Source of the DNA: a virus
Virus record (IMG/VR): IMGVR_UViG_2643221865_000002
Length of the DNA: 64,000 nt
Direction: 5' to 3' (one strand)
Positions within the stretch are counted from its first letter, which is position 1; every line of letters starts with the position of its first letter. Shown piece by piece: positions 560 to 27,964 of the stretch. The notes under the pieces are model-generated. The model was not told where the DNA came from, did not search any database, and saw only the letters and a list, made by a program, of their open reading frames with translations. A program made the position numbers and the translations under genes.

Positions 560-2290
560 CTACCGTCCGATCGAGGTGTAAGCGGTGAATGGGGTGGTGC
601 TGCTGGGGACGGTGACCGCTGTCGGCAGGTTCACTGCGGCGGTTGAGTTGACGCCGGCCTGCCCGTTGGTGTTCTTCCCCCACGAGTACAGGCGGCCTTT
701 CCAGTCGAACGCGAGGACGCCGTTGGGGCCGGCGGTGACGTCAGCGAACTTCACCTTCCCGGACGCCGTGGACAGGGCCGCATCGGTGGGGACGTTCTGG
801 TTGGCGGTGAGGTTGTTGCCGATGGTTCCGTTTGCGCCGTTGCCCCAGCAGTACACGTACCGGTACTTGTCGACGGCGCAGTTGAACGTGTCGCCGACAG
901 TCAGAGTGGTGAAGGTGCGGCTGCTGCTGACTGTGGTGCCGCCGACGACGGTGTTGTTGGCGCCGTTGCCGATCTGTCCGTTCGTTCCGAGGCCCCAGCA
1001 GGTGACGTTGGCGGTGGCGTTCGTGGTGAGCCCGCAGGCGGTGCCGGCGTTCACCTGGAGGCTGGTGAACTTGTAGGAGCCGGTGACCATCGCCAGGCGC
1101 GCGGCGCTGCTCAGTGCGGTCGCGGAACCGAAGGTGGTCTGCTTCGGGCCCTTGCACCAGACGTCCTTGTTGGTGTCGAGGATGCAGACGTTCCCGAGGG
1201 CGTCCATGTCGGCGGACACGACCTTGTTCGGGGCGGTGAGCGCGCTGGTCAGAACCGGGGTGATCGAGCTGCCCCACTCGTTGTACCCCCAGCAGAACAG
1301 GGCGTCGGGGGTGGTGTCAGCAGGAGTGGTGACGCCGCAAGTGGTGCCGCCGGTGGTCTCCAGCCAGCGGTACTTGTGGCTGTCGGCCACCGCCTGCGGG
1401 GTGGTCTGGTCGGTGCTCCCGCCGTTGCCGACCGCGCCGGCGCTGGTGCCGGAGTTCACACCCCAGCAGTACGCACTGTTGTCCGCGGCGCTGATGCCGC
1501 AGGTGGTTCCGGATCCCTTGGTGATGCTTGTCCAGGTGAACCCGGGGATGGCGGTCGGGATGAGGAGCGGGTCGATTGCCGACCCGACGCCGAGGATCGA
1601 GGCGGGGTTCGGACCCCAGCAGTAAGCAACGGCGGTGGTGGTGATGGCGCAGGTGCCGCCCAGGGTGCTGTTCTGGCGGTCGGTGACGACCTTCGCCACA
1701 GTGAGCGCGACGGTCGGCGCCGCGGGTGCCGCGACGACGATCTTCTTGGGGGTGGCGGATTGGGCGTTGCTGTTGTCCCCGAGACCGTTCTTCCCCCACG
1801 CCCACAGGTTGCTGGTGCCGTCCAGGTTTCCGGCTGCGTCGATCGCGAACGTCCGGTCCTGGCTTGCGGAGTAGGAGTCGACGGTGGCCGCGGTCTTGAA
1901 CCGGGTTTCTGTCACCTTGCTGGCGGTGCCCCAGACGGGAGCGCCGATGGAGTCGTACCCGACGATGTGGGTGTTGACACCCGAGGTGAGGTCGCGGTTC
2001 TCGGTCTTCGTGACAGCGCCGTAGGTCGCGGTGACAGCGATCGGGGTGTGCCCAGCGGCGGTGGTGCCGACGGTGATGGCGGCGGTGACTCCGTTGTAGG
2101 TTCGGGCGTCGGTCGTGGCGGTTCCGGCGCCGGCGAGCTCAGCGACGTAGGCGTCGTACCGTGTCTCCAGCGCGTTGTTGACAATGTAGGCGGTGTCAGC
2201 GGTCTTGTAGGTGGCTACGGTGTTGATGCCTGAGGTGGCGAGGCCGACGGAGATGACACCTGCCATGAGGACGAACGCGGCGGATGCCAT
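560..2290 (-). CDS. secreted RCC1-repeat (beta-propeller) protein with N-terminal signal/TM (MASAAFVLMAGVISVGLA)
   Basis: Seven or more repeats of the form xYCWG...G.LG (AYCWGPNPASILGVGS, AYCWGVNSGTSAG, VTCWGLGTNGQIGNG, VYCWGNGANGTIGNN, LYSWGKNTNGQAGVN) are typical of RCC1/ATS1 repeats. The ORF-track N-terminal 94 aa are Arg/His junk. An internal ATG at 2288-2290 is followed by a signal peptide. Confidence 0.7.
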   Translation of the reverse strand: MASAAFVLMAGVISVGLATSGINTVATYKTADTAYIVNNALETRYDAYVAELAGAGTATTDARTYNGVTAAITVGTTAAGHTPIAVTATYGAVTKTENRDLTSGVNTHIVGYDSIGAPVWGTASKVTETRFKTAATVDSYSASQDRTFAIDAAGNLDGTSNLWAWGKNGLGDNSNAQSATPKKIVVAAPAAPTVALTVAKVVTDRQNSTLGGTCAITTTAVAYCWGPNPASILGVGSAIDPLLIPTAIPGFTWTSITKGSGTTCGISAADNSAYCWGVNSGTSAGAVGNGGSTDQTTPQAVADSHKYRWLETTGGTTCGVTTPADTTPDALFCWGYNEWGSSITPVLTSALTAPNKVVSADMDALGNVCILDTNKDVWCKGPKQTTFGSATALSSAARLAMVTGSYKFTSLQVNAGTACGLTTNATANVTCWGLGTNGQIGNGANNTVVGGTTVSSSRTFTTLTVGDTFNCAVDKYRYVYCWGNGANGTIGNNLTANQNVPTDAALSTASGKVKFADVTAGPNGVLAFDWKGRLYSWGKNTNGQAGVNSTAAVNLPTAVTVPSSTTPFTAYTSIGR

Positions 2291-2355
2291 GGCGGATCCG
2301 CGCTGGTTGCGGCGCAGCGACCGGAACGGGTTTCTGATTGTCACGTGCAGGGTCC

Positions 2356-3039
2356 TTAGTTTCCGACGAACTTCGTGGTGGCGCTGGTGGTGCCGTTGAG
2401 GATGGAGACGCGGTTCGCGACCTGGTCTGCGGTCACTGTGACCGGGCGGGCGGTGCTGGTGTTGATGGTGGTGTTGAGGACGGCGGACTTGTACGCAGTG
2501 CTCTCCCACTTCACCTCGGAGACCTGGAGGTCTCGTGTCTTCGCTTCCAGCACCAGGTTGGCGCCGCTCCACTGGAACAGGCGGCCGCCGGCGTTCCGGT
2601 AGCTGAACGGGTCAGCTGCGCCGGAGTCGGGGATGACAGTCTCGGTGGCGTGGCTGGTTTCGGTGCCGAGGCATCCGGTCACGCCGATGCCGGATCCGGC
2701 GGGGAAGTTCGTCTGGGTGACGGTGATGTTCTTCTTCGCGACCAACGCCCAAGTGCTCGTGACGCAGGTGTTGTCGGTGCGGACGTAGGAGAACTTCACC
2801 TGCTCTACTGCGGGGATGATGACGGTGGCGTGGTCGACGTCGTTCCGCCACCGTGTCTGCGCCGCAGCGATCTGCTGTTGGGTGTTGGCGGTGACGTCGA
2901 CGGACAGTTTCGCGTAGTTGGCGGCGATGGTCCCGCCGACGATCGCGGTCATGCAGAGCGCGGAGACGATGACGGCGACGATGGTGTCGGGGAGGGAGAA
3001 TCCGCGCTGGTCGTTGCGGAGGCGGGTGAGGAGAGTCAC
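2356..3039 (-). CDS. TadE/pilin-like N-terminal domain secreted protein (pseudopilin-like)
   Basis: GTG start with RBS AAGGGAG. N-terminus LRNDQRGFSLPDTIVAVIVSALCMTAIVGG matches a class-III/TadE-like signal (charged, then G-F-S-L, then a hydrophobic helix). Its stop at 3043 abuts the next gene. Confidence 0.5.
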   Translation of the reverse strand: MTLLTRLRNDQRGFSLPDTIVAVIVSALCMTAIVGGTIAANYAKLSVDVTANTQQQIAAAQTRWRNDVDHATVIIPAVEQVKFSYVRTDNTCVTSTWALVAKKNITVTQTNFPAGSGIGVTGCLGTETSHATETVIPDSGAADPFSYRNAGGRLFQWSGANLVLEAKTRDLQVSEVKWESTAYKSAVLNTTINTSTARPVTVTADQVANRVSILNGTTSATTKFVGN

Positions 3040-3042
3040 GGG

Positions 3043-3804
3043 TCAGGCTCCCTTGTAGACGTTGAACCGGGACAGCTTGACTGTGCCGCCGTTGATGGGC
3101 GCGAAGTTGACGGTGATGGTGGTGCCGGCGGGTGCGAACACCGACCCGTAAAAGTAGGAGTTGTCGGTGTCGTCGAACTGGATCGATTCGAGCTTCGTGG
3201 CGCCGTTCATGAAGTCGATCGACCCCGGGCCGGAGGCGGTTGTGGCATTGATGTTGAGGACATAGCGGACCTCAGTGGCGCCGACTGGCACCTGGAACGT
3301 TCCGACAGCCCCGGCGGATACGGTGGCCGGTGCGGTAGTAGGTCCGGACACCGCGGTGCCCTTCCAGGACGGGTTCGCGTCGACGATCTGAATGCCGGGC
3401 TCTGCGATGGGGACTGAGACCGTCGTGGTGAGGCACGTGGCTTCCAGAGCTGCCGGGTTGGTGCATCCGGTCGCCCCGGTTTTCGGGACTGCGACATGGA
3501 TGACAGCCACACCGGGCTTGTCCTCACGCCAGGTGGTGACGCTTGTCGTTCCGGCGCCGGTGTTGACGTTGGCGCTGACCGGGGTTGTCAGGACGGCTGT
3601 GGGGTTGCCGACTTTGCCGTGGGCGATGTTCTGGATGACGGTGAGCCGGGTCGCCTGGTCGCGGGTGGCGTCGACGACGTCGGTGGTGGTGACGGCGACG
3701 CTGACGAGGGCGGTCATCGTCAGGGCGGTGATGACGACACCGAACATGGCGTCGATCAGCGCTGAACCGCGTTCATTCGCAAGTCTGCGGCGCAGCTTGT
3801 TCAT
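3043..3804 (-). CDS. TadE/TadG-like N-terminal domain secreted protein
   Basis: N-terminus RRRLANERGSALIDAMFGVVITALTMTALV matches the TadE-like pattern (ERG-x-AAVEFALV). RBS GAAGGAG lies 8 nt before the ATG. It is a tandem paralog of the previous gene. Confidence 0.5.
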   Translation of the reverse strand: MNKLRRRLANERGSALIDAMFGVVITALTMTALVSVAVTTTDVVDATRDQATRLTVIQNIAHGKVGNPTAVLTTPVSANVNTGAGTTSVTTWREDKPGVAVIHVAVPKTGATGCTNPAALEATCLTTTVSVPIAEPGIQIVDANPSWKGTAVSGPTTAPATVSAGAVGTFQVPVGATEVRYVLNINATTASGPGSIDFMNGATKLESIQFDDTDNSYFYGSVFAPAGTTITVNFAPINGGTVKLSRFNVYKGA

Positions 3805-3925
3805 GGGCGGGGCTCCTTCGGGGACGGGGTGGTCGGGATGACTTCATGCCTGACTATCGGCAGTGCCGGCGGTGTCCGTCACCGTCGGCCGGCACCTCTT
3901 TGCGGTCCGGCTGATGTCGCGGATG

Positions 3926-3944
3926 CCTCCTTCATGCGCGGATC
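3926..3944 (-). promoter_or_regulatory. gene-proximal conserved motif copy (plus-strand text cctccttcatgcgcggatc)
   Basis: Matches the consensus. It sits in the 227-bp gap upstream of gene 3043..3804. Confidence 0.5.
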
Positions 3945-3980
3945 TCGGCGGTTTCGGATCTACTCGCACCGGGGCGCGCA

Positions 3981-4016: not shown

Positions 4017-4031
4017 CGAGTGGTGCTGGTG

Positions 4032-5576
4032 CTACTTGGTGGCGCGGCGTGCGAGCTCGTCGAGGATGCGGCCGGCGAGGTCGTGCAGCTGCGCGGGGGT
4101 CATGGCGGCAAGGTCGCCGTCCACCTCGACAGGCTCGGAGGTCGAGCCGTCATCGCCAGGCTGGGTGCCGGTGCGGGTGACCTCGTCGCCATTCTTGTCG
4201 TAGAGGATGGCGTCACCGTCCTGCTCGATCACAGCGCGGTAGACGATGTTCTGGCTCTTGCCGATGGAGGCGACCCAGTTTCCGTCCTCACCGGGGACGA
4301 CCTCGAACACCTCCAGGCCGGTAGCCCAGTCAGGCATCCAGGAGTACTGCGTCTCGATCTCCTGGGCGATGGACGAGTTCGCGGAGCGAGTGTGACCCTT
4401 GGCGTACTTGTGGACGGAGAGCGTGTTCAGCTTCCCGGACGTCGACTCGGTGGCGTCGATGTTGGCGATGGCGACCACCGAGGTGGAGGATCCGCGCGGG
4501 GACAGCGGGGTGGAGTATCCGGCGTCGGAGTCTCCGGCGTAGCGGAGGGTGAACTCGGACCCGTTGAAGGAGCCGGTGTCGTTGGCGTTCTCGAACCCGT
4601 TGCGGTTCTGGACATGGTCCTCCCAGGTGCCGACCTTCCCGTCCTTGTTGAGGGCGTCGAGGGCCTGGCGCTGGATGGCGGCGAGGGACTGCGGGTAGAC
4701 GGGGCCGGGGATGTCGGAGGTGTCCGTGAACACGGTCACCTGGCCGGTCTTGCCGTCGTACACGGCGGCGCCGAACACGTTCCACTTTGTGATCCAGAAC
4801 CCGTCGTGGGACTTCAACGGGACGACGACCTTCGGGGTGTCACCGTCGCAGTAGCCGTACACGTCGCCGCTGTCGAAGGTGACGTTCACCGGGGTCTGCG
4901 CGTTGACCATCAGGTCGAGGGACTCATGCGGGAGGACTCCGCCGAGGCGCTGCTCGGCAGCGTTGACGTCGAAGTTGCAGTTCTTCACGTTGGAGGCGTC
5001 GGCAGCACCGAACATGGGAATGTCGATCGTCTGCACCGACTCGTAGCCGACCTGCCAGCCGTTCCGCTCAACGAGGGTGGTCCACAGGCCGGACTTGCCC
5101 TGGTCGATGAGCACCTTCGAGTTCAGTTCGGTGCCGGTGGTGTCACCCATCAGCTTGTGCGCTGATGATGCTGCCACGTCGTACGGGGCGCGGGGTGCGT
5201 AGTCCGGTGCGGGGTCGGTGACGACCTTCACACTGGACACGTACTGGGCGTGGGTGTCGAACGTTGTCCGGACAGCGGTGATGATGCTGAGGACGAGCAG
5301 CAGCAGGATGCCCAGGACGGCGATAGTGCCGATGGCAGCCCCCGGGCCGTTTCCTGCGGAGAAAGCGATGACAGCCACGACGAACAGGGCGACGATCGCA
5401 CCGATGAAGATGAAGACGGGCGCGGCGGAGATGAACACGTCAGCCCAGCCGTGAGCGAGGGATGGGCCCCAGACCAGCCACGGCCACCCGAGGACGGCGA
5501 CGGCAGCGATGGCCATGATGATGTAACCGGTGATGCTGCCGGATTCGGATCGGGACGAGTTGTAGTTGTAGCTCAT
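4032..5576 (-). CDS. integral membrane protein with large extracytoplasmic domain (hypothetical)
   Basis: ATG at 5576 with RBS AGGAAG. There are four N-terminal TM helices, then a 380-aa hydrophilic domain. Codon usage is clean. Confidence 0.7.
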   Translation of the reverse strand: MSYNYNSSRSESGSITGYIIMAIAAVAVLGWPWLVWGPSLAHGWADVFISAAPVFIFIGAIVALFVVAVIAFSAGNGPGAAIGTIAVLGILLLLVLSIITAVRTTFDTHAQYVSSVKVVTDPAPDYAPRAPYDVAASSAHKLMGDTTGTELNSKVLIDQGKSGLWTTLVERNGWQVGYESVQTIDIPMFGAADASNVKNCNFDVNAAEQRLGGVLPHESLDLMVNAQTPVNVTFDSGDVYGYCDGDTPKVVVPLKSHDGFWITKWNVFGAAVYDGKTGQVTVFTDTSDIPGPVYPQSLAAIQRQALDALNKDGKVGTWEDHVQNRNGFENANDTGSFNGSEFTLRYAGDSDAGYSTPLSPRGSSTSVVAIANIDATESTSGKLNTLSVHKYAKGHTRSANSSIAQEIETQYSWMPDWATGLEVFEVVPGEDGNWVASIGKSQNIVYRAVIEQDGDAILYDKNGDEVTRTGTQPGDDGSTSEPVEVDGDLAAMTPAQLHDLAGRILDELARRATK

Positions 5577-5748: not shown

Positions 5749-6114
5749 TTGATCGACGGAATCTCCACCATCCACTTCGGGCTCAGCATCGACGACCTCG
5801 CGGAGGTCCCCGAGGTGTGGGGTGCGACCGTGGACGGCGACGGCTGGAACGCATGGGGCGACAAGCCTGGCGTCGACGTCAACGACGCCGACACGCTCCA
5901 CCTGTCCATCACCCGCCACAACGAAGCCATCGACGGCACCGTCCGTACGGTGATCGCCCGCCTCGCGGACAAGCTCGTACAGATGGGCGGCTACGACAGC
6001 CAGGCCGGCATCGTCCTCGTCGTCACCGACTCGGCCGACTGGTCCGAGCAGAAGAAGTCGCTGAAGAAGGGCGAGCCGTGGATTGGCGCCTCCAAGGCGT
6101 TCGTCGCCGCGTAA
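5749..6114 (+). CDS. hypothetical protein (about 121 aa; TTG start guess)
   Basis: The C-terminal 120 aa of ORF 5575..6114 look protein-like (LIDGISTIHFGLSIDDLAEV...). A sense-orientation motif copy lies at 5686-5701 and a strong hairpin terminator at 6132-6170. The N-terminal ORF part is antisense junk. Confidence 0.4.
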   Translation: MIDGISTIHFGLSIDDLAEVPEVWGATVDGDGWNAWGDKPGVDVNDADTLHLSITRHNEAIDGTVRTVIARLADKLVQMGGYDSQAGIVLVVTDSADWSEQKKSLKKGEPWIGASKAFVAA

Positions 6115-8227: not shown

Positions 8228-8232
8228 GGCAC

Positions 8233-17153: not shown

Positions 17154-17190
17154 TGTTGTACAGGACGTACACGACGATTAGGATCGAGTC

Positions 17191-19955: not shown

Positions 19956-20492
19956 TCAACGCTCCTGGTTGTACACGTCGCCGTCGTTCACAGCGATCCG
20001 CAGGCGCGGCCCGTGGTCCTTCTCGAGGGTCTCGCCCGTGTCGATGCCGATGAGCGGAAGGCCAGGGGTGGTGCTGGACCAACCGGCCCAGATGTTGATC
20101 GGGACGGCGTCACCTTCGGCTGTGCGGTAGGTGACGTAGCCGTCCTCGACAACCGGGATGAACATGCCACCCTCACCGTCGACTGCGTCCTGCTGACTGG
20201 GCGTGAGGCCCGACTCCGGGTCAGCCGGCGCCGGCACAGTGGAGGGTGCGACGGGAAGCTGCTCGCGGAGCAGGTCAGCGAGGACACCGACCAGGTCGGT
20301 CATCGCGTCCTCGTGCGTCTCGAACGACTCCTGCTCGTTGTCGTAGTCGTTCAGCTCCTCCATCTCGGCGACCTCAGCGGTGCGAGTCGCTTCGACCTGG
20401 TCGAACGTGGCGAGGATCGCGCGGGCGCGGACCTCCCAATTGCCTGTGATGGTCTCGCCGGTGACGGGGTTGGGCAGGATGTTCTTGGTCAT
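19956..20492 (-). CDS. hypothetical acidic protein
   Basis: 178 aa with RBS GAAGGAG. A motif copy lies 26 nt upstream. Confidence 0.6.
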   Translation of the reverse strand: MTKNILPNPVTGETITGNWEVRARAILATFDQVEATRTAEVAEMEELNDYDNEQESFETHEDAMTDLVGVLADLLREQLPVAPSTVPAPADPESGLTPSQQDAVDGEGGMFIPVVEDGYVTYRTAEGDAVPINIWAGWSSTTPGLPLIGIDTGETLEKDHGPRLRIAVNDGDVYNQER

Positions 20493-20516
20493 GGGTGATG
20501 CTCCTTCTTCTCATCA

Positions 20517-20532
20517 CCAACATGTGCGGACC
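20517..20532 (-). promoter_or_regulatory. conserved motif copy
   Basis: 26 nt upstream of 19956..20492. Confidence 0.55.
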
Positions 20533-20569
20533 AGATGGCTTCTGGACGCCGAGTTGGATGACCCGTGTA

Positions 20570-23500
20570 TCAGCGCAGCTCGAACTCGAACCGGATCAGC
20601 GGGTTGACGTTGGCGCTCACGCCGATGGCGTATTTCCCGTTCTGGGAGATGACGAGCCTGTAGAAGATCACCGGCACAGCCGTTACGTGGTCAGTTCCAG
20701 ACACGCCGCTGTCGATGGAAGTCCACACCTTCCCGTCAGGGCCCGCTGCGATGATCCTCTTACCATCGCCGGACACGGCGATCGATTTCCACAGCCGGGG
20801 GCCGCCAGCATCCAGCGAGGTCCAGTTCGCGCCGTCGTCGGTGGACTTGTAGATGTTCTCGGTGAGGCTGGACACCGCGACGATGGTCGACCCGTCGGCG
20901 GAGAGCCGAGCGTCCACCCAGGACTTCGACGCACCGATCGTGGTCCAGGCTCCGTTCTTCCACAGGTACAGCTGGGCGGTGCCAGAGGCGCGAGCCAGGA
21001 TCTTCGTGCCGTCCGCCGAGACGGAGAGGCCCTGGTACGTCTTCGACGGAGGGCTCAGTTGCGTCCAGGTGCGGCCGCGGTCGTCGGAGTAGTTGATGGC
21101 GGTGCTCGCAGCGACCACGATCCGTCCGGTGTCGGCGGCGACCGCGACATCTCTCGGGCTCGAGGATGCCGAGCCGGTGTACTCGTAAGTGGCGAACTTG
21201 TCCGTGGTGACTTTCACGTTCGATGCCCCGAACCCGTAGAAGGTGCCGCCATCAGGTGCGACGGCGATCTGGTCCCAGGCGTAGCCGGCGCCGCTGGAGA
21301 AGCTGCGTTCCGACCAGGTGAGGCCGTGGTCGGTGGAGTACAGCAGCGGACCGGTGCCCGTCGGGTCGGCGAGGATCGTCTCTCCGTCCTTGGAGAACGC
21401 GATGTTGTCCCAGGTGCGGGCGGGGACGCCGGTGCTGCCGAAGTTCTTCCCGCCGTCGGTGGAGACCTTGATCATCGTGGATGCGTCAGACGCGACCAGC
21501 GAAGCGATGGAACCGTCCTTGGAAAACGACCCGCGGATCCAGTCATGGTTGGAGCTGTTCGATACGGACCAGGTCGCACCGCCATCCTCGGACAGGTATG
21601 CGAGCTGACCGCCGCGGTCCAGCGCCATCTGCTTGGAGCCGTCACCGTTCGCGGTGAGGGCGTAGAAGTACGTGGACCCGGGCAGTGTGTTCGTCCAGGT
21701 GACGAACCCATCGGAGGACTTGTACACCTTGTTGACGAGGCTGGCCATGGTGACCTTCCCGTCCCGGGAGATGCCGACGGAGTCGAACGACAGCCCACCG
21801 CCGGATGCCAGCTGCCGTTCATCCCAGGTGCGTCCGTAGTCGACGGAGTAGTACAGCGGGCTGGTGCTGGTCTTGTCGGCGATGAGGGTCTTCCCATCGT
21901 CGGATGCGACAACGTTCGTCCAGGTACGAGCGCCGGACCCGCCGGTAATGTGGGCGACGCTGTCTGCGGTGCGGAACACCGGGTCGGCAGCGGTGGCTGT
22001 GGCGAAGTTCCCACGGACGCCGTCACCGGACAGCGCGACCCGCCGCCAGGACTTCTCGAACCCGGCGAACAGCGTCCAGTTCGTGCCACCGTCGACGGTC
22101 TGCACAACCGAACCGCCGTTCACCATCACGACGGAGTTGCCGGTGGTCGACGAGGCGATCGAGTAGACACCCGTCGCGTTCGTGGTGGTGCGGATGTTGG
22201 TGGAAAACTGATTGTCGGACTTGTAGAAGTAGATGGACGCGGCCGCGAACACGTACGTCCCGTCGCGGGAGATGCCGACGGCGTCGAAGCTGGTGGACCC
22301 GGTGAACCGTTGGGTCCAGGTGTGGCCGTAGTCGATGGAGGTGTACAGGTACCCGGTCGATGAGTGGTCGGCGATCAGCTTGGAGCCGTCGTCTGATGCG
22401 GAGATCCCAGTCCAGGTCTTAACGAGCGACCCGGTGCTGGTCAGCCAGGATGCCCCGTGGTTGTCGGTGTAGGTGAGAGCGGAGGCAGCTTTGGCTGCGG
22501 TGAGGTGCTGCCCGTCGTTGGCGACGGTCATGCCTCCCCAGGTTGTGGCGGTGCCGGCTCCCGAGTCAGGCCAGGTAGCCCCGCCGTCGTCGGAGAGCAG
22601 GAGGCCGCCCGCGGCGATGGCCGCCGCCATGTGGTCGCCGTTGCCGGAGATCGCCACTCGGGTCCAGGCCTGAGAGGTGCCGCGTTGGGTCCAGGTTTCC
22701 CCGCCGTCAGTGGAGGAGTACAGGAATCCTGGGTTCGACGCTGCAAGGACTTTCAGTCCGTCGGCGGAGACGGCAATATCGGAGTAGCTGGCGAGCGGCC
22801 CGCCGACGGTCCAGGTGACCCCTCCGTCAGATGATGCGGTGATGCTCGCGCCGGTGGCTGTTGCGGTCATGTGCAGTCCGTCGTCGGCGATCGTCACGGC
22901 TGACCAGGTGCCAGTGAGTGCGCCGGGCCGTGCTGTCCAGACGACGCCGTCGTCGGAGGTGTAGACGGTGTCGGCGGTGGCAGCGGCGATGAAGTGTTTC
23001 CCGTTGCCGGAGATGCCGACCTTCGTCCAGGGCTTCGGAGCACCTGCCACGGCCGCCCAGGTAGCGCCCTTGTTGGTGGAGATGAACAGCTGCCCGGTCG
23101 CGGTTCCTGTCGCCGCGATGATGGTCTTCCCGTCGGCTGACATGGCGGAGTCCGTCCAGGTTCTGGTGCCGGACCCTTCCAGGGCGTACGACGCCAACGT
23201 GGCGACCTTCGGTGGGGCTGGCGGGCCCTCGGGGACCTCGACACCGCCCAGCTCGTCGAGGATGGCCACGTATTCGATGTCGGTGACGCAGCCCGGTGAC
23301 GCCGTCTCAGATGTCGGTGTGAAGATGGTTGTGTTGCCGCTGACGGTCGCGAACACCCCTGAGCCTGACGCTGACTTCACCACGGCGAGGTAGCAGGCCC
23401 CTGCACTGTCGGTGTCGACGGTCAGGTTGGGTGTGTTGTCGGAGTTGTGGTGGCCGGCGTCGGCGGCGTCCGGTTCGAGCAGCTTGGCTGTGACCAGCCC

Positions 23501-23728
23501 AGCAAGATCCGTGTACCTGTCTTCGGGGCCAGCCTGCATGGATGCTTCCGCGACCTGGACCTGACGGAGGTTCTGCCGGGCTGCTTCATCCTGTGCCCAT
23601 GGGATCGCGGCGAAGACGGTGCCTCCGATGATCCCGCCAACGAGCGCGATGACGAGGACGCCGACCATGACGGAGGCAAGGTCGATCGCCGCCCGCGGGT
23701 TGCGGATCGTGTGGATGGCTCGGAGCAC
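20570..23728 (-). CDS. giant BNR/Asp-box repeat protein (sialidase-like beta-propellers) with pilin-like N-terminal anchor module
   Basis: Fourteen or more S-x-D-x-G-x-T-W repeats (STDGGETW, SDDGGATW, SIDYGHTW, SVDYGRTW...). N-terminus LRAIHTIRNPRAAIDLASVMVGVLVIALVGGIIGGTVFAAIPWAQDEAARQN is shared with 26141..27964. The GTG start at about 23728 aligns with the paralog; the ORF-track TTG is at 23743. Confidence 0.7.
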   Translation of the reverse strand: MLRAIHTIRNPRAAIDLASVMVGVLVIALVGGIIGGTVFAAIPWAQDEAARQNLRQVQVAEASMQAGPEDRYTDLAGLVTAKLLEPDAADAGHHNSDNTPNLTVDTDSAGACYLAVVKSASGSGVFATVSGNTTIFTPTSETASPGCVTDIEYVAILDELGGVEVPEGPPAPPKVATLASYALEGSGTRTWTDSAMSADGKTIIAATGTATGQLFISTNKGATWAAVAGAPKPWTKVGISGNGKHFIAAATADTVYTSDDGVVWTARPGALTGTWSAVTIADDGLHMTATATGASITASSDGGVTWTVGGPLASYSDIAVSADGLKVLAASNPGFLYSSTDGGETWTQRGTSQAWTRVAISGNGDHMAAAIAAGGLLLSDDGGATWPDSGAGTATTWGGMTVANDGQHLTAAKAASALTYTDNHGASWLTSTGSLVKTWTGISASDDGSKLIADHSSTGYLYTSIDYGHTWTQRFTGSTSFDAVGISRDGTYVFAAASIYFYKSDNQFSTNIRTTTNATGVYSIASSTTGNSVVMVNGGSVVQTVDGGTNWTLFAGFEKSWRRVALSGDGVRGNFATATAADPVFRTADSVAHITGGSGARTWTNVVASDDGKTLIADKTSTSPLYYSVDYGRTWDERQLASGGGLSFDSVGISRDGKVTMASLVNKVYKSSDGFVTWTNTLPGSTYFYALTANGDGSKQMALDRGGQLAYLSEDGGATWSVSNSSNHDWIRGSFSKDGSIASLVASDASTMIKVSTDGGKNFGSTGVPARTWDNIAFSKDGETILADPTGTGPLLYSTDHGLTWSERSFSSGAGYAWDQIAVAPDGGTFYGFGASNVKVTTDKFATYEYTGSASSSPRDVAVAADTGRIVVAASTAINYSDDRGRTWTQLSPPSKTYQGLSVSADGTKILARASGTAQLYLWKNGAWTTIGASKSWVDARLSADGSTIVAVSSLTENIYKSTDDGANWTSLDAGGPRLWKSIAVSGDGKRIIAAGPDGKVWTSIDSGVSGTDHVTAVPVIFYRLVISQNGKYAIGVSANVNPLIRFEFELR

Positions 23729-23764
23729 CTTGTGGCCTTTCAAACTTCTTCGGTTCTCCGTGAA

Positions 23765-23780
23765 GTCATGTGGCGGACGG
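23765..23780 (-). promoter_or_regulatory. conserved motif copy (class 2)
   Basis: Upstream of the BNR gene. Confidence 0.5.
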
Positions 23781-23785
23781 ACGTC

Positions 23786-24673
23786 TCAGCGGCTGGGGAA
23801 GGACCTCGCCAAACCGTCGGCCGTCGGTCTGTACCCGAGCAGCTCTGTCGCCGGCTCGATGTCGAAGGTGCGGTCATGCCCGAATTGGAGGAGGGAGTAG
23901 TACGACAGCTGCGCTTTCAGCGGCAGCTTCGACGTGATAGCCGACACAGCCAGCGCCGCATCGACAGGGATGTTCAGCACCCGGTGCGGGCCGAGCGCCG
24001 AGAGTGCCGCTTCCCGGACAGTGATCGCTTCAGGGTCGGTGATGTTGAACGTGTTCACGCCGGGGAGGGCCGCATCTACGGCGCAGAGGATCGCATGGAC
24101 GAGGTTCCCGACCCAGGTGAACTGATGGACGGCGTGGCCGCCGTTCGGCAGGGGAAGGACGCCGAACCGTCCGAGCCGGCGGAGCGTTGGAGCGAAGCTG
24201 GCGTCCCCCGCTCCGTACACCGCGTGTGGCCTGAGGATGGCGGCGTTCCGTCGGAGACCGGTGATCAACCCTTCGGCGGCGAGCTTTGACGGGCCGTACG
24301 AGTTGAGGAACGGGTAGAAGAACGATGCGTCTTCCGTCTTCGTGTTCACCGACGGTTCGGACATGTTGTAGACGGCGGCGGAGGACAGGTGGATGAAATG
24401 CCCGTCGGAGAGTTCGAGGGCCGCTTGGGTGAGGCGGATGTTGGCTTCCTCGATCTCTTCCGACCAGCCGTCGCGGGTGTCAGCGGCGCAGTGGATGACG
24501 GTGGCGTCACCGAACCACGGCATCTTCCCGAGCTCGAAGTCGGTGCGGTAGAACTGCACATCCGACCCGGACCTGCGCCCCACCTCGGTGACGTTGTGGC
24601 CGGCGTTCCGGAGCGCAGCCACGGTTCGTGAGCCCACGAACCCGCTGCCTCCGGTGACGACGACGTCTGCCAT
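23786..24673 (-). CDS. NAD-dependent epimerase/dehydratase (SDR family)
   Basis: Rossmann motif VVTGGSGFVGS and catalytic YGPSK. Confidence 0.8.
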   Translation of the reverse strand: MADVVVTGGSGFVGSRTVAALRNAGHNVTEVGRRSGSDVQFYRTDFELGKMPWFGDATVIHCAADTRDGWSEEIEEANIRLTQAALELSDGHFIHLSSAAVYNMSEPSVNTKTEDASFFYPFLNSYGPSKLAAEGLITGLRRNAAILRPHAVYGAGDASFAPTLRRLGRFGVLPLPNGGHAVHQFTWVGNLVHAILCAVDAALPGVNTFNITDPEAITVREAALSALGPHRVLNIPVDAALAVSAITSKLPLKAQLSYYSLLQFGHDRTFDIEPATELLGYRPTADGLARSFPSR

Positions 24674-25422
24674 CAGGCCGCCCGGAACAGGGCTTCGATC
24701 GCGGACCGGACCTGACCGTCGGAGTCGTAGCGGAGCTTGTCCGCGGCGAGGATTCCGATGTTCGGGTTAGATGCGACGGCCCGGCGGACCGTGACGGTGG
24801 TGTCGCCGGCGAGGACCAGGAGCAGATCACTGGGGGTGGCCGGGTTCGCAGCGACCGCACGGCGAACACCGTCGTCGCTGTCAGCTGCTGCGTTGGTGAG
24901 CAGCTCGACGGTCAGCTGCGAGTTCTCCGCTGCGTTCTGGCGGACGTACGCGTCAGGGTGATCGATGAGCGCTTCGAGGACGTCGACCGGTGTGTGCGGG
25001 TTCTCCGCGATGGTGGCGAGTGGGATCTCTGCATGCCCGGACTCGACCATCTCCCGCAGCTTCGCCGGGCTGGTCTTCAACGAGCGGGCGAGGGCGCGGA
25101 TGACGTCGTGGGTTTCGTCGTCGTACAGGTCAGCGATCACAGCGGCCGGGGTGGCGGAGTTCGCGACGACGGCGGCGCGGACGTCCGGGTCGTCATCGTG
25201 GGAGAGGACGGTGAGCAGGTCGGTGCCGGCGGTTTCGTTCGTGGCGACCGCGACTCGGAGACGCTCGTCGGCGGAGTGGGCGAGCACCTCCAACAGCTCG
25301 AGCGGGGTGTCATACGAGTCAGCGACCCGAAGCCAGTACTCGATGCCGACAGCTTCGATCAGGTCCGACACGGTGAGCTCGTCAAGGTCGAAGTGGGCGT
25401 CGTTGGTGGAAGGGGTCGTCAT
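24673..25422 (-). CDS. leucine-rich repeat variant (LRV)/HEAT-like repeat protein
   Basis: Repeats of the form ..L..L..D.D..VR.AVA.NP.TP. The internal ATG (MTTPSTND...) is chosen because the ORF-track N-terminus overlaps the HAD gene region. Confidence 0.5.
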   Translation of the reverse strand: MTTPSTNDAHFDLDELTVSDLIEAVGIEYWLRVADSYDTPLELLEVLAHSADERLRVAVATNETAGTDLLTVLSHDDDPDVRAAVVANSATPAAVIADLYDDETHDVIRALARSLKTSPAKLREMVESGHAEIPLATIAENPHTPVDVLEALIDHPDAYVRQNAAENSQLTVELLTNAAADSDDGVRRAVAANPATPSDLLLVLAGDTTVTVRRAVASNPNIGILAADKLRYDSDGQVRSAIEALFRAA

Positions 25423-25430
25423 GCCGGAAA

Positions 25431-25447
25431 GCCATGTGGCGGAATGG
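25431..25447 (-). promoter_or_regulatory. conserved motif copy (class 2, N10 before ATG of LRV gene)
   Basis: In the divergent region with the HAD gene. Confidence 0.5.
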
Positions 25448-25458
25448 TGCACGGCCCT

Positions 25459-25475
25459 CCCCGCCACATGTCTCC
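25459..25475 (+). promoter_or_regulatory. conserved motif copy in plus orientation (CCCGCCACATGTCTCC, N10 before ATG 25481)
   Basis: Its orientation follows the plus-strand HAD gene. Confidence 0.5.
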
Positions 25476-25480
25476 CGGCC

Positions 25481-26116
25481 ATGCACGCCCGCGCCACCTG
25501 GACTGACTCCATCGCCCGCCAGATGACCATCGCCGCAGCCGCCGGCAGGAACGTCATCTGGGATTTCGACGGGACCATCGCCGACACTGAACATCTGCAC
25601 GAGGAGTCATTCCGGGCGGTGCTTGCCGTCCGAGGGTTCCACGTCCCCGACGACTACTTCGAGGTGAACTTCGGCGGGTCAGAGGAAGCGATCTGGCTTA
25701 CCCTCCGCGACGTGCACGGTGCGCCGATCGACGAGATCGCAGACGTCGTGGCCGAACGGAAAGACGTGTACGCGACCCTCGCTCAGCAGGTCGAACCCGG
25801 CTGGCTTGTTGAAGACCTCGCACCGGCATTCGAGCAAGTCGGTGCGGTCCAGTACGTGATCTCCAACGGTCAGCACGACACCAACGCCGACCTGATCCGG
25901 CGGTTCGGGTTCCACGACCTCCTCCGCAGCGTCAACCGGGGCACCCGGGACAAGTCCGACTTCTACCCGGAGCTGCGGCCTGCTGTCATCCTCGACGACC
26001 GCAGCCACTACCTCGGCCGCGGGAGGACGCTCGGCGCCCTCACCGTGGGTGTGCACAACAACCGGAATCGCGGAGCGCAGCTCGGCGCCGACGTCACTGT
26101 GGACATCGCCGCCTGA
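25481..26116 (+). CDS. HAD-superfamily hydrolase
   Basis: Motif I VIWDFDGTIADTE. The start at 25481 is preferred because a sense-orientation class-2 motif copy lies 10 nt upstream; an alternative ATG is at 25525. Confidence 0.7.
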   Translation: MHARATWTDSIARQMTIAAAAGRNVIWDFDGTIADTEHLHEESFRAVLAVRGFHVPDDYFEVNFGGSEEAIWLTLRDVHGAPIDEIADVVAERKDVYATLAQQVEPGWLVEDLAPAFEQVGAVQYVISNGQHDTNADLIRRFGFHDLLRSVNRGTRDKSDFYPELRPAVILDDRSHYLGRGRTLGALTVGVHNNRNRGAQLGADVTVDIAA

Positions 26117-26140
26117 GCTGCTCCCCGCTTTGTCGGTGTC

Positions 26141-27964
26141 CTACTGAGGCGGGATGATCGCCGGCGCCGTCATGCCAGCCCTTCCCCACATCCACACGTT
26201 CCCGCTGGTGTCCAGAGCTGTGACCCTGTACCCGCTGACGTCCACAGACGCGAACGTTGTCGTTCCGACGGTGTCCAGCAGCCTCGGCGTGCCCTGAGTG
26301 AGAGGAGAAGCCCCGAACCCGAGAGACAGACCAGAGCTGTTGTTCGTGCCCCACGTGTAGATGTGTCCGTCTTCGTCGAGGGCTGCGGCAGCTGAGGAGC
26401 CTACTGAGAACTGCTTGAACTTCGCCGATGGGTACGCGCCGAGGTTAGCGGCAACGGGCGTGGCGGAAGTGACGGATGCCACTCCGGTCCCTGCCTTGCT
26501 GAGGCCGGCGATGCCCCACGTATAGAGCTTGCCGTCTGTTCCGATGGCGATGGCCTGGTACCCGTAGATCTCCACCGACTTAAAGGTGGTGGTCCCAAAC
26601 ATCTGTGTGGGCACGGAGAGGGTCACGACTCCAGATCCGCCGAGAACGCTCCCCTGGTCGGACTTGCCCCACATCCAGATGTGGTCGTCGACGTCGAGGC
26701 CGATCCCGACTGCTCCGGTTGCGTATGTCTGAGTGGCGCTGATGTGCTTGAACTTGACCGATGTGGGGATCTTTGTCGGCTTTACTGTGTCCGAGGCGGC
26801 GCTACCCAGAAGGTTTCCTGTGCTGGAGCCCCACGAGTAGATGTCGCCGTCCTGGGACAACGCGATCGCAGCGCTGGTGGCAGCAGCTACTTCCTTCCAC
26901 TTCACGCCGGCGCCGATCTGCGCGGTCCGGGACGCCGGTGTGTTCACAGGTTGTCCGTCGCCGAGGGCGGTTCCACCCTGGCCCCACATGTCTCCCTGGC
27001 CGTCAATGATGTAGGTCCTGCCGGCTCCGTTGGTGGAGATCGCAACGGCCGGCTTCGTGAAGTTCGTCAGCTGGGTGATCACGTCGGTGGTCCCCGACTT
27101 CACGTACTGGTAGATCCGGCCGCCCTGATCGCTGACGATCTCAACGTCGGTGTTGTTTCCGGCGAACACCGGGTCGGTGGTGATGATGATCTGGCCGGCG
27201 ACCGGGGAGCTCGTCCCGCCGTCGTTCGTGGCGGTGAGGGTGAAGTTGGAGACGCCGATCTGGTTCGGGGTCCCAGAGATGACGCCCGTGCTCGCGTCGA
27301 GTGCGAGTCCGAGCTTCGACAGGCCGTCAGCCGGCTGGACCGCGAATGTGAACACGGTCGGGCGGCCTGTCGCGGAGATCGTGACCGGACCCCAGACCTG
27401 CCCGACCTTCCCTGCGGGCAGAGTCGGGACCGTGAGAGTCGGGGCGATCGGGAGGACGGGCGGCGGGGGCGGCGGGGTGAAGTCGTCGCCAGGTAGCGCG
27501 ATTCCTGCGATGACGTCCTTCAGCGGACGGAGCAGTGGAGCGCAGAAGTCTGCGTGGGTGCTGTCGGCTTCGGACTTGTAGTCGCGAACCGTGGGGCTCT
27601 GGGAGGTGGTGTAGAAGAAGCTGCCGTCCCCTGACCTGATCGCTGCGACCCAGCAGGTGCCGTCCGTGTCGGTGGTGACGTCGAGGGTTGTCTTGTGCTC
27701 GATCAGGTCGACCGGCGCGGTTGACAGGATCCCGTACTCCAGATACTTCCCGCCAGCTTCCGGCAGCATCTTGGCGAGGGACTCAGCGACCCGCACGGTG
27801 GCGAGGTCCTGCTTCGCGGCTTCGCGCTGCGACCAGGGAATCACACCGAACACGGTTGCGGAGATGATTGACCCGACGAGAGCGATGACGATGACGCCGA
27901 CCATGATCGATGCGAGATCGATCGCAGCTCGGGGGTTCCGGAGGAGTCGGAGAAGGCGAAGCAC
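26141..27964 (-). CDS. RCC1-repeat beta-propeller protein with pilin-like N-terminal anchor module (paralogous N-terminus to 20570..23728)
   Basis: GTG start. N-terminus MLRLLRLLRNPRAAIDLASIMVGVIVIALVGSIISATVFGVIPWSQREAAKQ. C-terminal repeats DIYSWG, HIWMWGKSDQGSVLGG, KLYTWG, HIYTWGTNNSSGL and NVWMWGRAG. Confidence 0.7.
   Translation of the reverse strand: MLRLLRLLRNPRAAIDLASIMVGVIVIALVGSIISATVFGVIPWSQREAAKQDLATVRVAESLAKMLPEAGGKYLEYGILSTAPVDLIEHKTTLDVTTDTDGTCWVAAIRSGDGSFFYTTSQSPTVRDYKSEADSTHADFCAPLLRPLKDVIAGIALPGDDFTPPPPPPVLPIAPTLTVPTLPAGKVGQVWGPVTISATGRPTVFTFAVQPADGLSKLGLALDASTGVISGTPNQIGVSNFTLTATNDGGTSSPVAGQIIITTDPVFAGNNTDVEIVSDQGGRIYQYVKSGTTDVITQLTNFTKPAVAISTNGAGRTYIIDGQGDMWGQGGTALGDGQPVNTPASRTAQIGAGVKWKEVAAATSAAIALSQDGDIYSWGSSTGNLLGSAASDTVKPTKIPTSVKFKHISATQTYATGAVGIGLDVDDHIWMWGKSDQGSVLGGSGVVTLSVPTQMFGTTTFKSVEIYGYQAIAIGTDGKLYTWGIAGLSKAGTGVASVTSATPVAANLGAYPSAKFKQFSVGSSAAAALDEDGHIYTWGTNNSSGLSLGFGASPLTQGTPRLLDTVGTTTFASVDVSGYRVTALDTSGNVWMWGRAGMTAPAIIPPQ

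What the first reader, a model, noticed from the sequence alone, without database searches (positions are those of the whole stretch)
560..27964. Shared pilin-like N-terminal anchor on two giant beta-propeller repeat proteins, with TadE-like pseudopilins and a third RCC1 protein nearby: a candidate surface-display/adhesin system
20570..23728 (BNR/Asp-box, about 1050 aa) and 26141..27964 (RCC1 repeats, about 600 aa) have unrelated C-terminal repeat domains but share a roughly 100-aa N-terminal module: (M/V)LR..(H/R)..(I/L)RNPRAAIDLAS(V/I)MVGV(L/I)VIALVG.II..TVF..IPW.Q.EAA.Q(N/D)L..V.VAE. Its layout (basic segment, about 22-residue hydrophobic helix, then IP-aromatic) resembles the class-III (type IV pilin-like) signal anchor, but it lacks the canonical G|F-x-x-x-E cleavage motif. 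Genes 2356..3039 and 3043..3804 have TadE-like N-termini (QRGFSLPDTIVAVIV and ERGSALIDAMFGVVI). They sit just upstream of another secreted RCC1-repeat protein (560..2290). Fusions of RCC1 or BNR propellers to pilin-like anchors would point to a novel pilus-tip or pseudopilus-displayed adhesin, or a phage receptor-binding apparatus.
Basis: partly seen in the sequence, partly recalled or inferred. Interest (0 to 1): 0.65.

Follow-up and report, generated by a model that had tools for sequence, protein, structure and literature searches.

The report
Modular type IV pilins carrying propeller adhesins
Two giant beta-propeller proteins in this Leifsonia window begin with a complete but non-canonical type IV pilin domain, and three minor pilins sit nearby, so they most likely put adhesin domains on a retractable pilus built by genes elsewhere on the same contig; this design is known from other bacteria, but this pilin family is missed by the standard pilin motif models.

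Summary
Products of 20570-23728 (BNR/Asp-box, 1052 aa) and 26141-27964 (He_PIG + RCC1, 607 aa) share an N-terminal module of about 155 aa (41% identity, E 3e-22).

The family has about 936 clusters, mainly in Micrococcales. About two thirds of the best 150 carry C-terminal adhesin-like modules. Short members sit directly after pilB-pilT-pilC.

Genes 3043-3804, 2356-3039 and 560-2344 (start corrected) are the conserved minor-pilin trio that follows the pilin in those operons. They are not TadE family.

The source is Leifsonia sp. Leaf264. Its 701-kb contig also encodes pilB, pilT, pilC, an A24 prepilin peptidase and a 195-aa pilin.

Best reading: modular pilins and a tip complex that display adhesin domains on a PilT-type pilus. 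This is a new variant of a known kind, comparable to Streptococcus sanguinis PilB/PilC and Saccharibacteria PilX2. The signal motif (G/A-A-I-D-L-A-S, no Glu5) is non-canonical. Cleavage, incorporation into pili and ligands are untested.

The parts
26141..27964 (-). Modular type IV pilin, 607 aa (KQO98290). Order of parts: pilin module, Pro-rich linker, He_PIG Ig-like domain, RCC1 beta-propeller.
   Evidence: Pfam finds RCC1, WD40_RLD and He_PIG. The A1 family HMM scores E 7.7e-55. In the full-length AF2 model the pilin module has pLDDT of about 90-97 and the linker (residues 160-215) is below 50.
27497..27964 (-). Pilin module of the RCC1 pilin (aa 1-156). It has a basic leader, then RA|AIDLASIMVGV..., a roughly 56-residue alpha1 helix and a 4-strand beta-sheet head.
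20570..23728 (-). Modular type IV pilin, 1052 aa (KQO98286). Pilin module followed by long BNR/Asp-box propeller repeats.
   Evidence: Pfam finds BNR and Sortilin-Vps10. The A1 HMM scores E 8.3e-47. BLASTP to the RCC1 pilin module gives E 3e-22.
23249..23728 (-). Pilin module of the BNR pilin (aa 1-160), with RA|AIDLASVMVGV...
3043..3804 (-). Minor pilin 1, 253 aa (KQO98266). Class III-type N-terminus ANERG|SALIDAMFGVVI with Gly at -1 and Asp at +5.
   Evidence: Its homologues follow the pilin gene in L001, L005, L014, L022 and the Glaciihabitans plasmid. Gly -1 is invariant, and two Cys are conserved. The profile hits Thermus PilA4 at E 0.0028.
2356..3039 (-). Minor pilin 2, 227 aa (KQO98265). 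N-terminus NDQRG|FSLPDTIVAVIV. RefSeq names it 'PulJ/GspJ family protein'.
   Evidence: One homologue has a canonical G|FTLVE. NCBIfam gives a prepilin N-terminal domain hit at E 6.8e-4. hhalign against the pilin-module profile gives probability 89%.
560..2344 (-). Minor pilin 3, 594 aa. Leader RRNQRG|SAMASAAFVLMAGVI has no acidic residue at +5 (as in GspK). The C-terminus is an RCC1 propeller, which makes this the candidate for the most distal tip adhesin.
   Evidence: Pfam finds RCC1. It is homologous and syntenic with the RCC1 protein that ends the operon in L005/L006 and L022.

Best explanation
The region encodes accessory subunits of a PilB/PilT/PilC-type type IV pilus of Leifsonia sp. 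Leaf264.

Shown:
- The two giant proteins are modular pilins. Each has an N-terminal pilin module of about 155 aa, with an alpha1 helix and a beta-sheet head. A low-confidence Pro-rich linker joins it to a ligand-binding-type module: BNR/Asp-box propellers in one, He_PIG Ig plus an RCC1 propeller in the other.
- Genes 3043-3804, 2356-3039 and 560-2344 are the conserved three-gene minor-pilin set that follows the major pilin in related operons.
- The assembly machine is not in the window. It lies elsewhere on the same 701-kb contig: pilB, pilT, pilC, a short A24 prepilin peptidase and a 195-aa pilin.

Inferred mechanism:
1. The A24 peptidase cuts the basic leader after the conserved Gly/Ala.
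2. The minor-pilin trio primes assembly and ends up at the tip. The RCC1 subunit, which lacks Glu5, sits most distally, as GspK does.
3. The modular pilins enter the filament through their major-pilin-like alpha1 helix, at the tip or sparsely along the shaft. This places interchangeable adhesin domains on a fibre that PilT can retract.
4. The ligands are unknown. Glycans or other surface polymers of plants or other cells are the most plausible.
For: Fold:
- The AF2 model of the module has pLDDT 81.7, a helix at 11-66 and four strands.
- In sequence searches of the PDB, the best hits are also pilins, though not significant.

Family:
- 936 clusters at E<=1e-3.
- Of the best 150, 39 are stand-alone (<=210 aa) and 102 are longer than 300 aa.
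- The C-terminal modules of 99 long members include DUF285/BspA LRR (17), RCC1 (8), BNR (7), NHL (5), CBM and PKD.
- The residue before A-(I/V)-D-L-A-S is only Gly (105) or Ala (41).

Context:
- Short members lie directly after pilB-pilT-pilC in L005/L006 and L014, followed by homologues of the window's three minor pilins.
- The Glaciihabitans plasmid NZ_CP043654 has pilB-pilT-pilC-A24-pilin-3 minor pilins, plus three dispersed modular pilins.
- All 5 PLSDB plasmids that carry the module also carry the PilC homologue.
- Same genome and same contig: PilB KQO98701, prepilin peptidase KQO98704 (with a GGGDVKL motif) and pilin KQO98706.
- Machine typing: GspE/PilB-family ATPase, PilT/PilU family (E 2e-75), GspF/PilC.

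Minor pilins: Gly -1 is invariant, and Asp/Glu sits at +5 in two of the three.
Against: - No experiment exists. Cleavage, pilus incorporation and binding are all inferred.
- The module fails two textbook pilin features. It gets no PF07963/TIGR02532 match, and it has no Glu5 (Asp at +3, or at +2 if the cut falls one residue later).
- The window copies have Ala instead of Gly at -1. From general knowledge of PilD specificity, Ala is tolerated but processed less well.
- Foldseek support is weak (E 0.17).
- The machine is far away, about 370 accession numbers from the window (inferred).
- The operon's own pilin has a different N-terminus (DG|IEVSIP), so compatibility with the window's modules is not shown.
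- A second, unseen machine cannot be excluded.
Confidence: 0.75

Rival explanations
1. These are cell-surface proteins held by an uncleaved N-terminal signal anchor. The hydrophobic helix is only a membrane tether, and the proteins never enter a filament.
For: There is no Glu5 and no N_methyl motif hit. The window copies have Ala at -1. The genes are scattered among unrelated genes, far from any assembly ATPase.
Against: The conserved part is a full pilin head, not just a TM helix. Stand-alone members of 150-200 aa occupy the major-pilin slot right after pilB-pilT-pilC(-A24). Position -1 is restricted to Gly or Ala in 146/146 matched members. The module co-occurs with PilC on 5 of 5 plasmids.
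Confidence: 0.08
2. This is a short pseudopilus or 'bindosome'-like assembly. The class III-type signal and the pilus machine would anchor the binding proteins close to the cell surface, as with the archaeal sugar-binding proteins assembled by the Bas system. No long retractile pilus would carry them.
For: There are many paralogues per genome, at least 5. Their bulky domains would be hard to pack along a filament. The peptidase is short, like TadV/FlaK, at 148-155 aa.
Against: The operons include a full-length PilT/PilU-family ATPase, which argues for dynamic extension and retraction. There is a dedicated short major pilin and a three-subunit tip-type minor pilin set. The bacterial precedent for such fusions is true pili (PMC8179133, PMC11623550).
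Confidence: 0.12
3. This is a Tad (type IVc) system. 2356-3039 and 3043-3804 would be TadE/TadF pseudopilins, and the big proteins would be Tad-associated adhesins.
For: The N-termini superficially resemble TadE (G followed by a hydrophobic stretch). The peptidase lacks a methyltransferase domain, as TadV does. Tad is the only type IV pilus experimentally studied in Actinobacteria (PMC6916266).
Against: There is no PF07811 hit at E<=0.01. The linked machine has one GspF/PilC-type platform protein, a GspE/PilB-type ATPase of 500-800 aa and a PilT-family ATPase. The pilins are 150-200 aa lollipop pilins, not 40-70-aa Flp.
Confidence: 0.03
4. This is a phage or phage-like receptor-binding apparatus encoded on a prophage.
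For: The window is dense in mobile-element-type genes, including PARP, Macro, an HNH protein, RNase H, a helicase-methylase and a tRNA.
Against: There is no DNA or protein match to 50,697 phage records, and none in IMG/VR. Pfam finds no capsid, portal, terminase or tail genes. Relatives are on large plasmids with ParA/RepA.
Confidence: 0.02

Closest known systems
Modular type IV pilins PilB (vWA module) and PilC (lectin module) of Streptococcus sanguinis (PMC8179133, PMC9934059)
   Same: An N-terminal pilin module is joined by a short linker to a bulky, non-pilus-specific binding module. The host is a monoderm. The machine is a PilB/PilT/PilC type. The proposed role is adhesin display at the pilus tip.
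   Different: The S. sanguinis pilins carry the canonical IPR012902 motif with Gly-1 and Glu5, and they sit inside the pil operon. Here the module has G/A-A-I-D-L-A-S without Glu5 and is missed by Pfam and NCBIfam motif models. The pilin module resembles the family's major pilin. The genes are dispersed, with at least 5 per genome, and the modules are propellers (RCC1, BNR).
PilX2 of Saccharibacteria TM7x (Nanosynbacter lyticus), a minor pilin with a seven-bladed RCC1 beta-propeller (PMC11623550)
   Same: An RCC1 propeller is fused to a pilin-like N-terminus. It is proposed as a glycan-directed adhesin. The authors report no canonical PilD signal, which parallels the RCC1 subunit 560-2344 that lacks Glu5.
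   Different: The phylum and lifestyle differ (an episymbiont of Actinobacteria). Sequence relatedness to the window proteins was not tested here.
GspI-GspJ-GspK / PilV-W-X type minor-pilin tip complexes; the large tip pilins CofB (ETEC) and TcpB (V. cholerae)
   Same: A conserved set of three minor pilins is encoded after the major pilin. The largest one lacks Glu5 and carries an extra domain. 2356-3039 is named GspJ family by RefSeq.
   Different: Only weak or borderline sequence similarity was found. No structure or complex prediction was made. The extra domain here is an RCC1 propeller.
PilY1/PilC tip adhesins of type IVa pili
   Same: A beta-propeller adhesin is presented at the pilus tip by minor pilins.
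   Different: PilY1 is not a pilin and has its own propeller family (IPR008707). Here the propeller is covalently fused to a pilin.
PilV adhesins of the R64 thin pilus (plasmid-borne type IVb pilus)
   Same: Both are plasmid-associated type IV pili with alternative adhesin C-termini on a constant pilin N-terminus. Related loci here sit on Micrococcales megaplasmids.
   Different: R64 switches C-termini by a shufflon. Here separate paralogous genes exist, and no sign of recombination was seen at DNA level. No link to conjugation has been demonstrated.

Membership tests
Type IV pilins (type IV filament subunits) | Lollipop fold: an N-terminal alpha1 helix of about 50 residues packed on an antiparallel beta-sheet | tested here: met
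Type IV pilins (type IV filament subunits) | Class III signal peptide: a short basic leader ending in Gly, cleaved by an A24 prepilin peptidase | tested here: inconclusive
   The leader is basic, with a median of 24 residues. Position -1 is Gly in 105 and Ala in 41 of 146 members. The window's modular copies have Ala. The three minor pilins have Gly. Actual cleavage cannot be tested in silico. Profile alignments also allow a cut one residue later, GA|IDLAS.
Type IV pilins (type IV filament subunits) | Acidic residue (Glu) at position +5 of the mature protein | tested here: not met
   The modular pilin module has an invariant Asp at +3 and Ser at +6 (or Asp +2 and Ser +5), with no Glu5. Asp5 is present in 3043-3804 and 2356-3039. 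It is absent in 560-2344, as in GspK-type tip pilins.
Type IV pilins (type IV filament subunits) | Match to the N-terminal methylation motif models (PF07963 / TIGR02532 / IPR012902) | tested here: not met
   Pfam reported no PF07963 (N_methyl) hit for any window protein, and it is not among the 25 most frequent of the 35 families reported for 99 family members. NCBIfam gives only a sub-threshold prepilin-domain hit for 2356-3039 (E 6.8e-4) and a GspG hit for P0006 (E 0.002).
Type IV pilins (type IV filament subunits) | Genetic association with an assembly ATPase, a platform protein and a prepilin peptidase | tested here: met
   These genes are directly adjacent in L005/L006, L014 and the Glaciihabitans plasmid. 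In the window's own genome they are on the same 701-kb contig but not adjacent. The module co-occurs with PilC on 5 of 5 plasmids.
Modular pilins (sensu Raynaud et al. 2021, PMC8179133) | An N-terminal pilin module followed by a linker and a module that is not specific to pilus biology | tested here: met
   The window proteins are pilin module + He_PIG + RCC1, and pilin module + BNR. The same architecture with many other modules is found across the family.
Modular pilins (sensu Raynaud et al. 2021, PMC8179133) | Identified through the IPR012902 N-terminal motif | tested here: not met
   Pfam and NCBIfam found no motif match. This family would have been missed by that survey.
TadE/TadF pseudopilins (PF07811) of Tad/type IVc pili | Match to the TadE-like domain | tested here: not met
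   There is no PF07811 hit at E<=0.01 for 2356-3039 or 3043-3804.
TadE/TadF pseudopilins (PF07811) of Tad/type IVc pili | Association with TadA, two platform paralogues TadB/TadC, and a small Flp pilin | tested here: not met
   The linked operons have a GspE/PilB-type ATPase, a PilT-family ATPase and a single GspF/PilC-type protein. The pilins are 150-200 aa.
Phage receptor-binding / tail fibre modules | Location in a phage genome next to virion structural genes | tested here: not met
   There are no matches in phage records or IMG/VR. Pfam finds no structural genes in the window.

The most novel reading that the evidence does not exclude
The pilin module defines a distinct, previously unrecognised branch of type IV filament subunits. 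Its features would be:
- an acidic residue at +2/+3 instead of Glu5;
- Gly or Ala at -1;
- processing by a short A24 peptidase that lacks a methylase domain.

This branch belongs to a PilT-equipped pilus carried by Micrococcales megaplasmids. The plasmids would hold a library of interchangeable adhesin-pilins (at least 5 in this genome). These would retarget the pilus to different partner cells or surfaces. One possible use is mating-pair formation for the FtsK/SpoIIIE-type DNA translocases that neighbour these genes in several relatives.
Probability: 0.2. Interest if true: 0.75.

Novelty: new variant of a known kind. Interest (0 to 1): 0.5.

Why it matters
- **Unstudied pilus type in Actinobacteria.** Only Tad (type IVc) pili have been studied experimentally in Actinobacteria (PMC6916266). 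Here a PilB/PilT/PilC-type system with its own prepilin peptidase is linked to a family of about 900 pilin clusters. About two thirds of the best 150 are adhesin fusions.
- **Missed by surveys.** The standard pilin motif models do not detect this family, so motif-based surveys of modular pilins undercount it.
- **A natural experiment on pilin assembly.** The family shows which N-terminal features a pilin needs: Gly/Ala at -1 is kept, Glu5 is not.
- **Concrete candidates for adhesion.** The genes are testable adhesins for leaf-surface or cell-cell attachment in plant-associated Microbacteriaceae, and for the biology of their megaplasmids.

Tried and rejected
- Megablast of 20000-28500 against plasmids and phages found no match. 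tblastn of the module against phages and an IMG/VR scan found nothing. The phage reading was dropped.
- Pfam scans of about 60 window ORFs found no T2SSE, T2SSF, Peptidase_A24 or TadE. A regex plus hydropathy screen for GxGD multi-TM proteins found no peptidase in the window. The machine is not in the window.
- Pfam on the genes upstream of pilB in L005 gave nothing useful.
- A sequence-profile search of the PDB with the module gave only non-significant pilin hits (E 0.16-0.9).
- The search for homologous proteins on minor pilin 1 returned only itself and one relative. No useful alignment for structure prediction could be built, so the minor pilins were not modelled.
- The DNA alignment of the three module-coding 5' ends shows about 72% mean identity with no long identical tract. 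Recent gene conversion or cassette switching is not supported.
- Walking to the window's flanks was limited. The left flank (L008) and the right-end contig (L019) hold no assembly genes.
- The 514-aa membrane protein at 4032-5576, upstream of the minor pilins, has no detectable relation to pilus proteins.


Full report
**1. Observation**

The window is 65% G+C, and nearly all genes from 1 to 58 kb lie on the minus strand.

- Pfam finds BNR/Asp-box and Sortilin-Vps10 repeats in 20570-23728.
- It finds RCC1, RCC1-like and He_PIG in 26141-27964.
- It finds RCC1 in the gene ending at 560.
- BLASTP between the two large proteins aligns only the N-terminal 160 residues or so: 68/164 identical, E 3e-22. 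Identity in the first 60 residues is much higher.

Exact-sequence look-ups show that the window comes from a 701,121-bp contig of Leifsonia sp. Leaf264 (Microbacteriaceae). The matching proteins are KQO98264-66, KQO98286 and KQO98290.

**2. The shared module is a complete pilin domain**

A word-indexed search with the 162-aa module returned 14 proteins. Almost all are stand-alone proteins of 140-260 aa, and JGI labels some of them 'pseudopilin PulG'.

Their alignment gives this consensus: basic leader, G, A-I-D-L-A-S-I-M-V-G-V-I-V-I-G-I-I-G-G, then V-I-P-W-S-Q-D-x-A-A-x-Q-x-L. Conserved Ser/Gly positions follow further on.

The structural evidence is as follows:

- AlphaFold2 on this alignment gives pLDDT 81.7, with one long helix (residues 11-66), a loop and four antiparallel strands.
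- With a 99-sequence alignment, the module reaches pLDDT 90-97 within the full-length protein. A low-confidence Pro-rich linker follows.
- Foldseek also puts pilins first, but only weakly (E 0.17).
- Sequence-profile hits to the PDB are pilins but are not significant.

**3. Family size and architecture**

An exhaustive HMM search of 1.84 billion representatives found 936 clusters at E<=1e-3 and 373 at E<=1e-30.

- Among the best 150, 39 are at most 210 aa and 102 are longer than 300 aa. The module is always at the N-terminus.
- Pfam on 99 long members finds DUF285/BspA-type LRR (17), RCC1 (8), BNR/Asp-box (7), NHL (5), SGL (4), He_PIG (3), beta-helix (3), CBM_4_9 (2) and PKD (2). The fusion seen in the window is therefore the usual state of this family.
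- The residue before A-(I/V)-D-L-A-S is Gly in 105 and Ala in 41 of 146 matched members, and nothing else.
- Ala is more frequent in long members than in short ones (38/111 against 4/39, Fisher p 0.004, not corrected for phylogeny).
- Genomic hits are in Microbacteriaceae and Micrococcaceae. There is one Armatimonadota MAG fragment and one record titled Streptomyces.
- Plasmid hits are five Micrococcales plasmids of 149-440 kb, each with 3-4 copies.

**4. Genomic context links the family to a PilB/PilT/PilC pilus**

In metagenomic contigs L005/L006, the short family member P0006 follows three genes directly: T2SSE (813 aa), T2SSE (376 aa) and T2SSF (370 aa). After it come proteins of 251 aa and 391 aa and a 586-aa RCC1 protein.

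- NCBIfam types the three machine proteins as GspE/PilB family, PilT/PilU family (E 2e-75, full length) and GspF/PilC.
- The same gene order occurs in a Microbacteriaceae MAG (L014).
- BLASTP shows that the three genes after the pilin are homologues of window 3043-3804, 2356-3039 and 560-2344, in the same order.

The complete Glaciihabitans sp. INWT7 plasmid (149 kb) shows the fullest picture:

- It carries two T2SS/T4P ATPases, a T2SS F-family protein, an A24 family peptidase (148 aa) and a 169-aa family member (HMM E 4e-24), followed by three larger proteins.
- It also has ParA/RepA and two FtsK/SpoIIIE proteins.
- Three dispersed modular pilins lie elsewhere on the plasmid: a BspA-LRR protein (491 aa), an RCC1 protein (652 aa) and a 525-aa protein.

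**5. The window's own genome has the machine**

A profile of three PilB sequences retrieved P0189, 'GspE/PulE family protein [Leifsonia sp. Leaf264]'. It is 65% identical to the Glaciihabitans ATPase and lies on the same 701,121-bp contig.

Its neighbourhood (L022) reads as follows:

- pilB (695 aa), pilT (366 aa), a PilC-like protein (441 aa) and Peptidase_A24 (155 aa, with a GGGDVKL motif, named prepilin peptidase by RefSeq);
- an 894-aa Ig-like protein on the other strand;
- a 195-aa pilin (family HMM E 4.5e-21);
- a 266-aa homologue of minor pilin 1, a 539-aa RCC1 protein and a 706-aa protein.

Protein accession numbers rise with window coordinate (98264 to 98332), and PilB is 98701. The operon therefore probably lies a few hundred genes to the right of the window. 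This is an inference.

No assembly gene is in the window or its accessible flanks.

The genome holds at least five modular pilins:

- two in the window;
- a 1057-aa BNR fusion just to its left (L008);
- two on contig_1 (L015).

**6. The minor pilins**

Alignments of homologues show an invariant Gly before the hydrophobic segment in both smaller families, plus two conserved Cys.

- *Minor pilin 1* reads RG|S-A-L-I-D-A-M (Asp at +5). Its profile hits PilA4 (6xxd) at E 0.0028 over 104 residues.
- *Minor pilin 2* reads RG|F-S-L-P-D. One homologue has the canonical G|F-T-L-V-E. It gets a sub-threshold prepilin N-terminal domain hit and aligns with the module profile at 89% probability. RefSeq names it PulJ/GspJ family.
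- *The RCC1 protein* has RG|S-A-M-A-S with no acidic residue at +5, as does its L005 homologue. From established knowledge of type II secretion and type IV pili, the tip-most subunit (GspK type) characteristically lacks Glu5. I therefore infer that it is the distal tip subunit.
- PF07811 (TadE) is not matched.

**7. The non-canonical N-terminus**

Two cleavage registers are possible.

- If cleavage follows the Gly/Ala, the mature module starts A-I-D-L-A-S, with Asp at +3.
- HMMER and hhalign instead place I-D-L-A-S in register with F-T-L-I-E. That puts Ser at +5 and the Ala as an inserted residue.

The operon pilins of Leaf264 and Glaciihabitans read DG|(I/L)-E-V-S-I-P, with an acid at +2. The exact site cannot be settled from sequence.

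The peptidases are 148-155 aa, and Pfam reports only the Peptidase_A24 domain. From knowledge of PilD and TadV, this implies no N-methylation. That step is also an inference.

**8. Mechanism and rivals**

*Shown:* the fold, the family architecture, synteny with a PilT-type machine, and the presence of the machine in the same genome.

*Inferred:* leader cleavage by the A24 peptidase; priming and tip location of the trio; incorporation of modular pilins through alpha1; adhesion as the function of the propeller modules.

*Rivals:*

- a plain signal anchor;
- a bindosome-like surface assembly without long pili;
- Tad pseudopilins;
- a phage apparatus.

The last two fail the tests above. The first two cannot be excluded without experiments, but the evidence in sections 2-5 argues against them.

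**9. Comparison with known systems**

- 'Modular pilins' were defined on S. sanguinis PilB and PilC. They were surveyed through the IPR012902 motif, giving more than 1,200 proteins and 264 architectures, including PF05345/He_PIG (PMC8179133).
- A seven-bladed RCC1 propeller on minor pilin PilX2, without a predicted PilD signal, is reported for Saccharibacteria TM7x (PMC11623550).
- Pili studied so far in Actinobacteria are Tad-type, and T4a-type systems are only predicted there (PMC6916266).

This finding is therefore a new variant of a known kind. The family is large, is not detected by the standard pilin motif models and lacks Glu5. It is tied to Micrococcales megaplasmid-type replicons and has several dispersed adhesin-pilins per genome.

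**10. Replicon context**

- The PilC homologue occurs in PLSDB only on nine Micrococcales plasmids of 118-608 kb. These include all five that carry the module.
- The window's 1665-aa helicase-methylase has its best plasmid matches on the same three Curtobacterium megaplasmids.
- FtsK/SpoIIIE ATPases neighbour pilin-module genes in four other loci.

Together these suggest, but do not prove, that the 701-kb contig is a megaplasmid. They also leave open a role for the pilus in cell-cell contact during transfer.

Noticed in passing
L008 14729-17902 (about 0.9-4.1 kb left of window position 1): A third modular pilin, 1057 aa. It has the same pilin module (RDPRA|ALDLASIMVGV) fused to BNR/Asp-box-like repeats. 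Two more module-bearing genes lie on contig_1 of the same genome (L015 5298-6596 and 9923-11164).
   Followed up: partly
L022 1575-13662 (same 701-kb contig of Leifsonia sp. Leaf264, outside the window): A complete pilus operon: pilB, pilT, pilC-like, a 155-aa A24 prepilin peptidase, a 195-aa pilin with the unusual N-terminus DG|IEVSIPNIIVA, and its own minor pilins, including a second RCC1 one.
   Followed up: yes
window 61091-63520 (+): An 809-aa protein made almost entirely of collagen triple-helix (G-X-Y) repeats (Pfam Collagen E 9e-100). The Logan short-read contig L019 ends at window 62585, inside this gene.
   Followed up: no
window 56583-57911 (-), 46828-47361 (-), 52424-53512 (-): A bacterial PARP (WGR + PARP_reg + PARP catalytic domains) and two Macro-domain proteins lie in the same gene array. 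This is an ADP-ribosylation writer/eraser set typical of anti-defence or leading-region cargo.
   Followed up: no
window 31852-37828 (-): Four consecutive or near-consecutive proteins with N-terminal DnaJ (J) domains, two of them with multi-spanning membrane C-termini, flank a UvrD-type helicase (33958-35706).
   Followed up: no
window 12352-17349 (-): A 1665-aa methyltransferase + SNF2/DEAD helicase fusion. The family is found on 1316 plasmid records. The best matches are three Curtobacterium megaplasmids (546-608 kb) that also carry the closest PilC homologues, which hints that the 701-kb contig is a megaplasmid.
   Followed up: partly
window 5829-5916 (-): A lone tRNA-Val(GAC) is embedded in the minus-strand gene array between the minor-pilin cluster and the rest. 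A CCA-adding enzyme gene (PolyA_pol + HD) lies left of the window (L008 17931-19472).
   Followed up: no
window 49223-51541 (-): A secreted protein with five He_PIG Ig-like domains, a Gly/Pro-rich N-terminal stretch, and a C-terminal hydrophobic segment with a basic tail. It is another probable surface protein and has no pilin module.
   Followed up: no
L001, L011, L012, L017; Glaciihabitans plasmid NZ_CP043654 109388-111097 and 132418-136947: Large FtsK/SpoIIIE-family ATPases (570-1509 aa), together with a conserved protein of about 214 aa, recur within a few kb of pilin-module genes. This may link the pilus to actinobacterial DNA translocase-type transfer.
   Followed up: partly
window 23565-23900 (+) and 27615-27989 (+): Long antisense ORFs opposite the pilin-module coding regions appear 'conserved' in BLAST across loci. 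This is a by-product of the conserved high-GC sense strand, not evidence of genes.
   Followed up: yes
window 4032-5576 (-): A 514-aa protein with 3-4 N-terminal TM helices and a large extracytoplasmic domain lies directly upstream of the minor-pilin trio. It has no family match and no homologue in the related pilus loci examined.
   Followed up: partly
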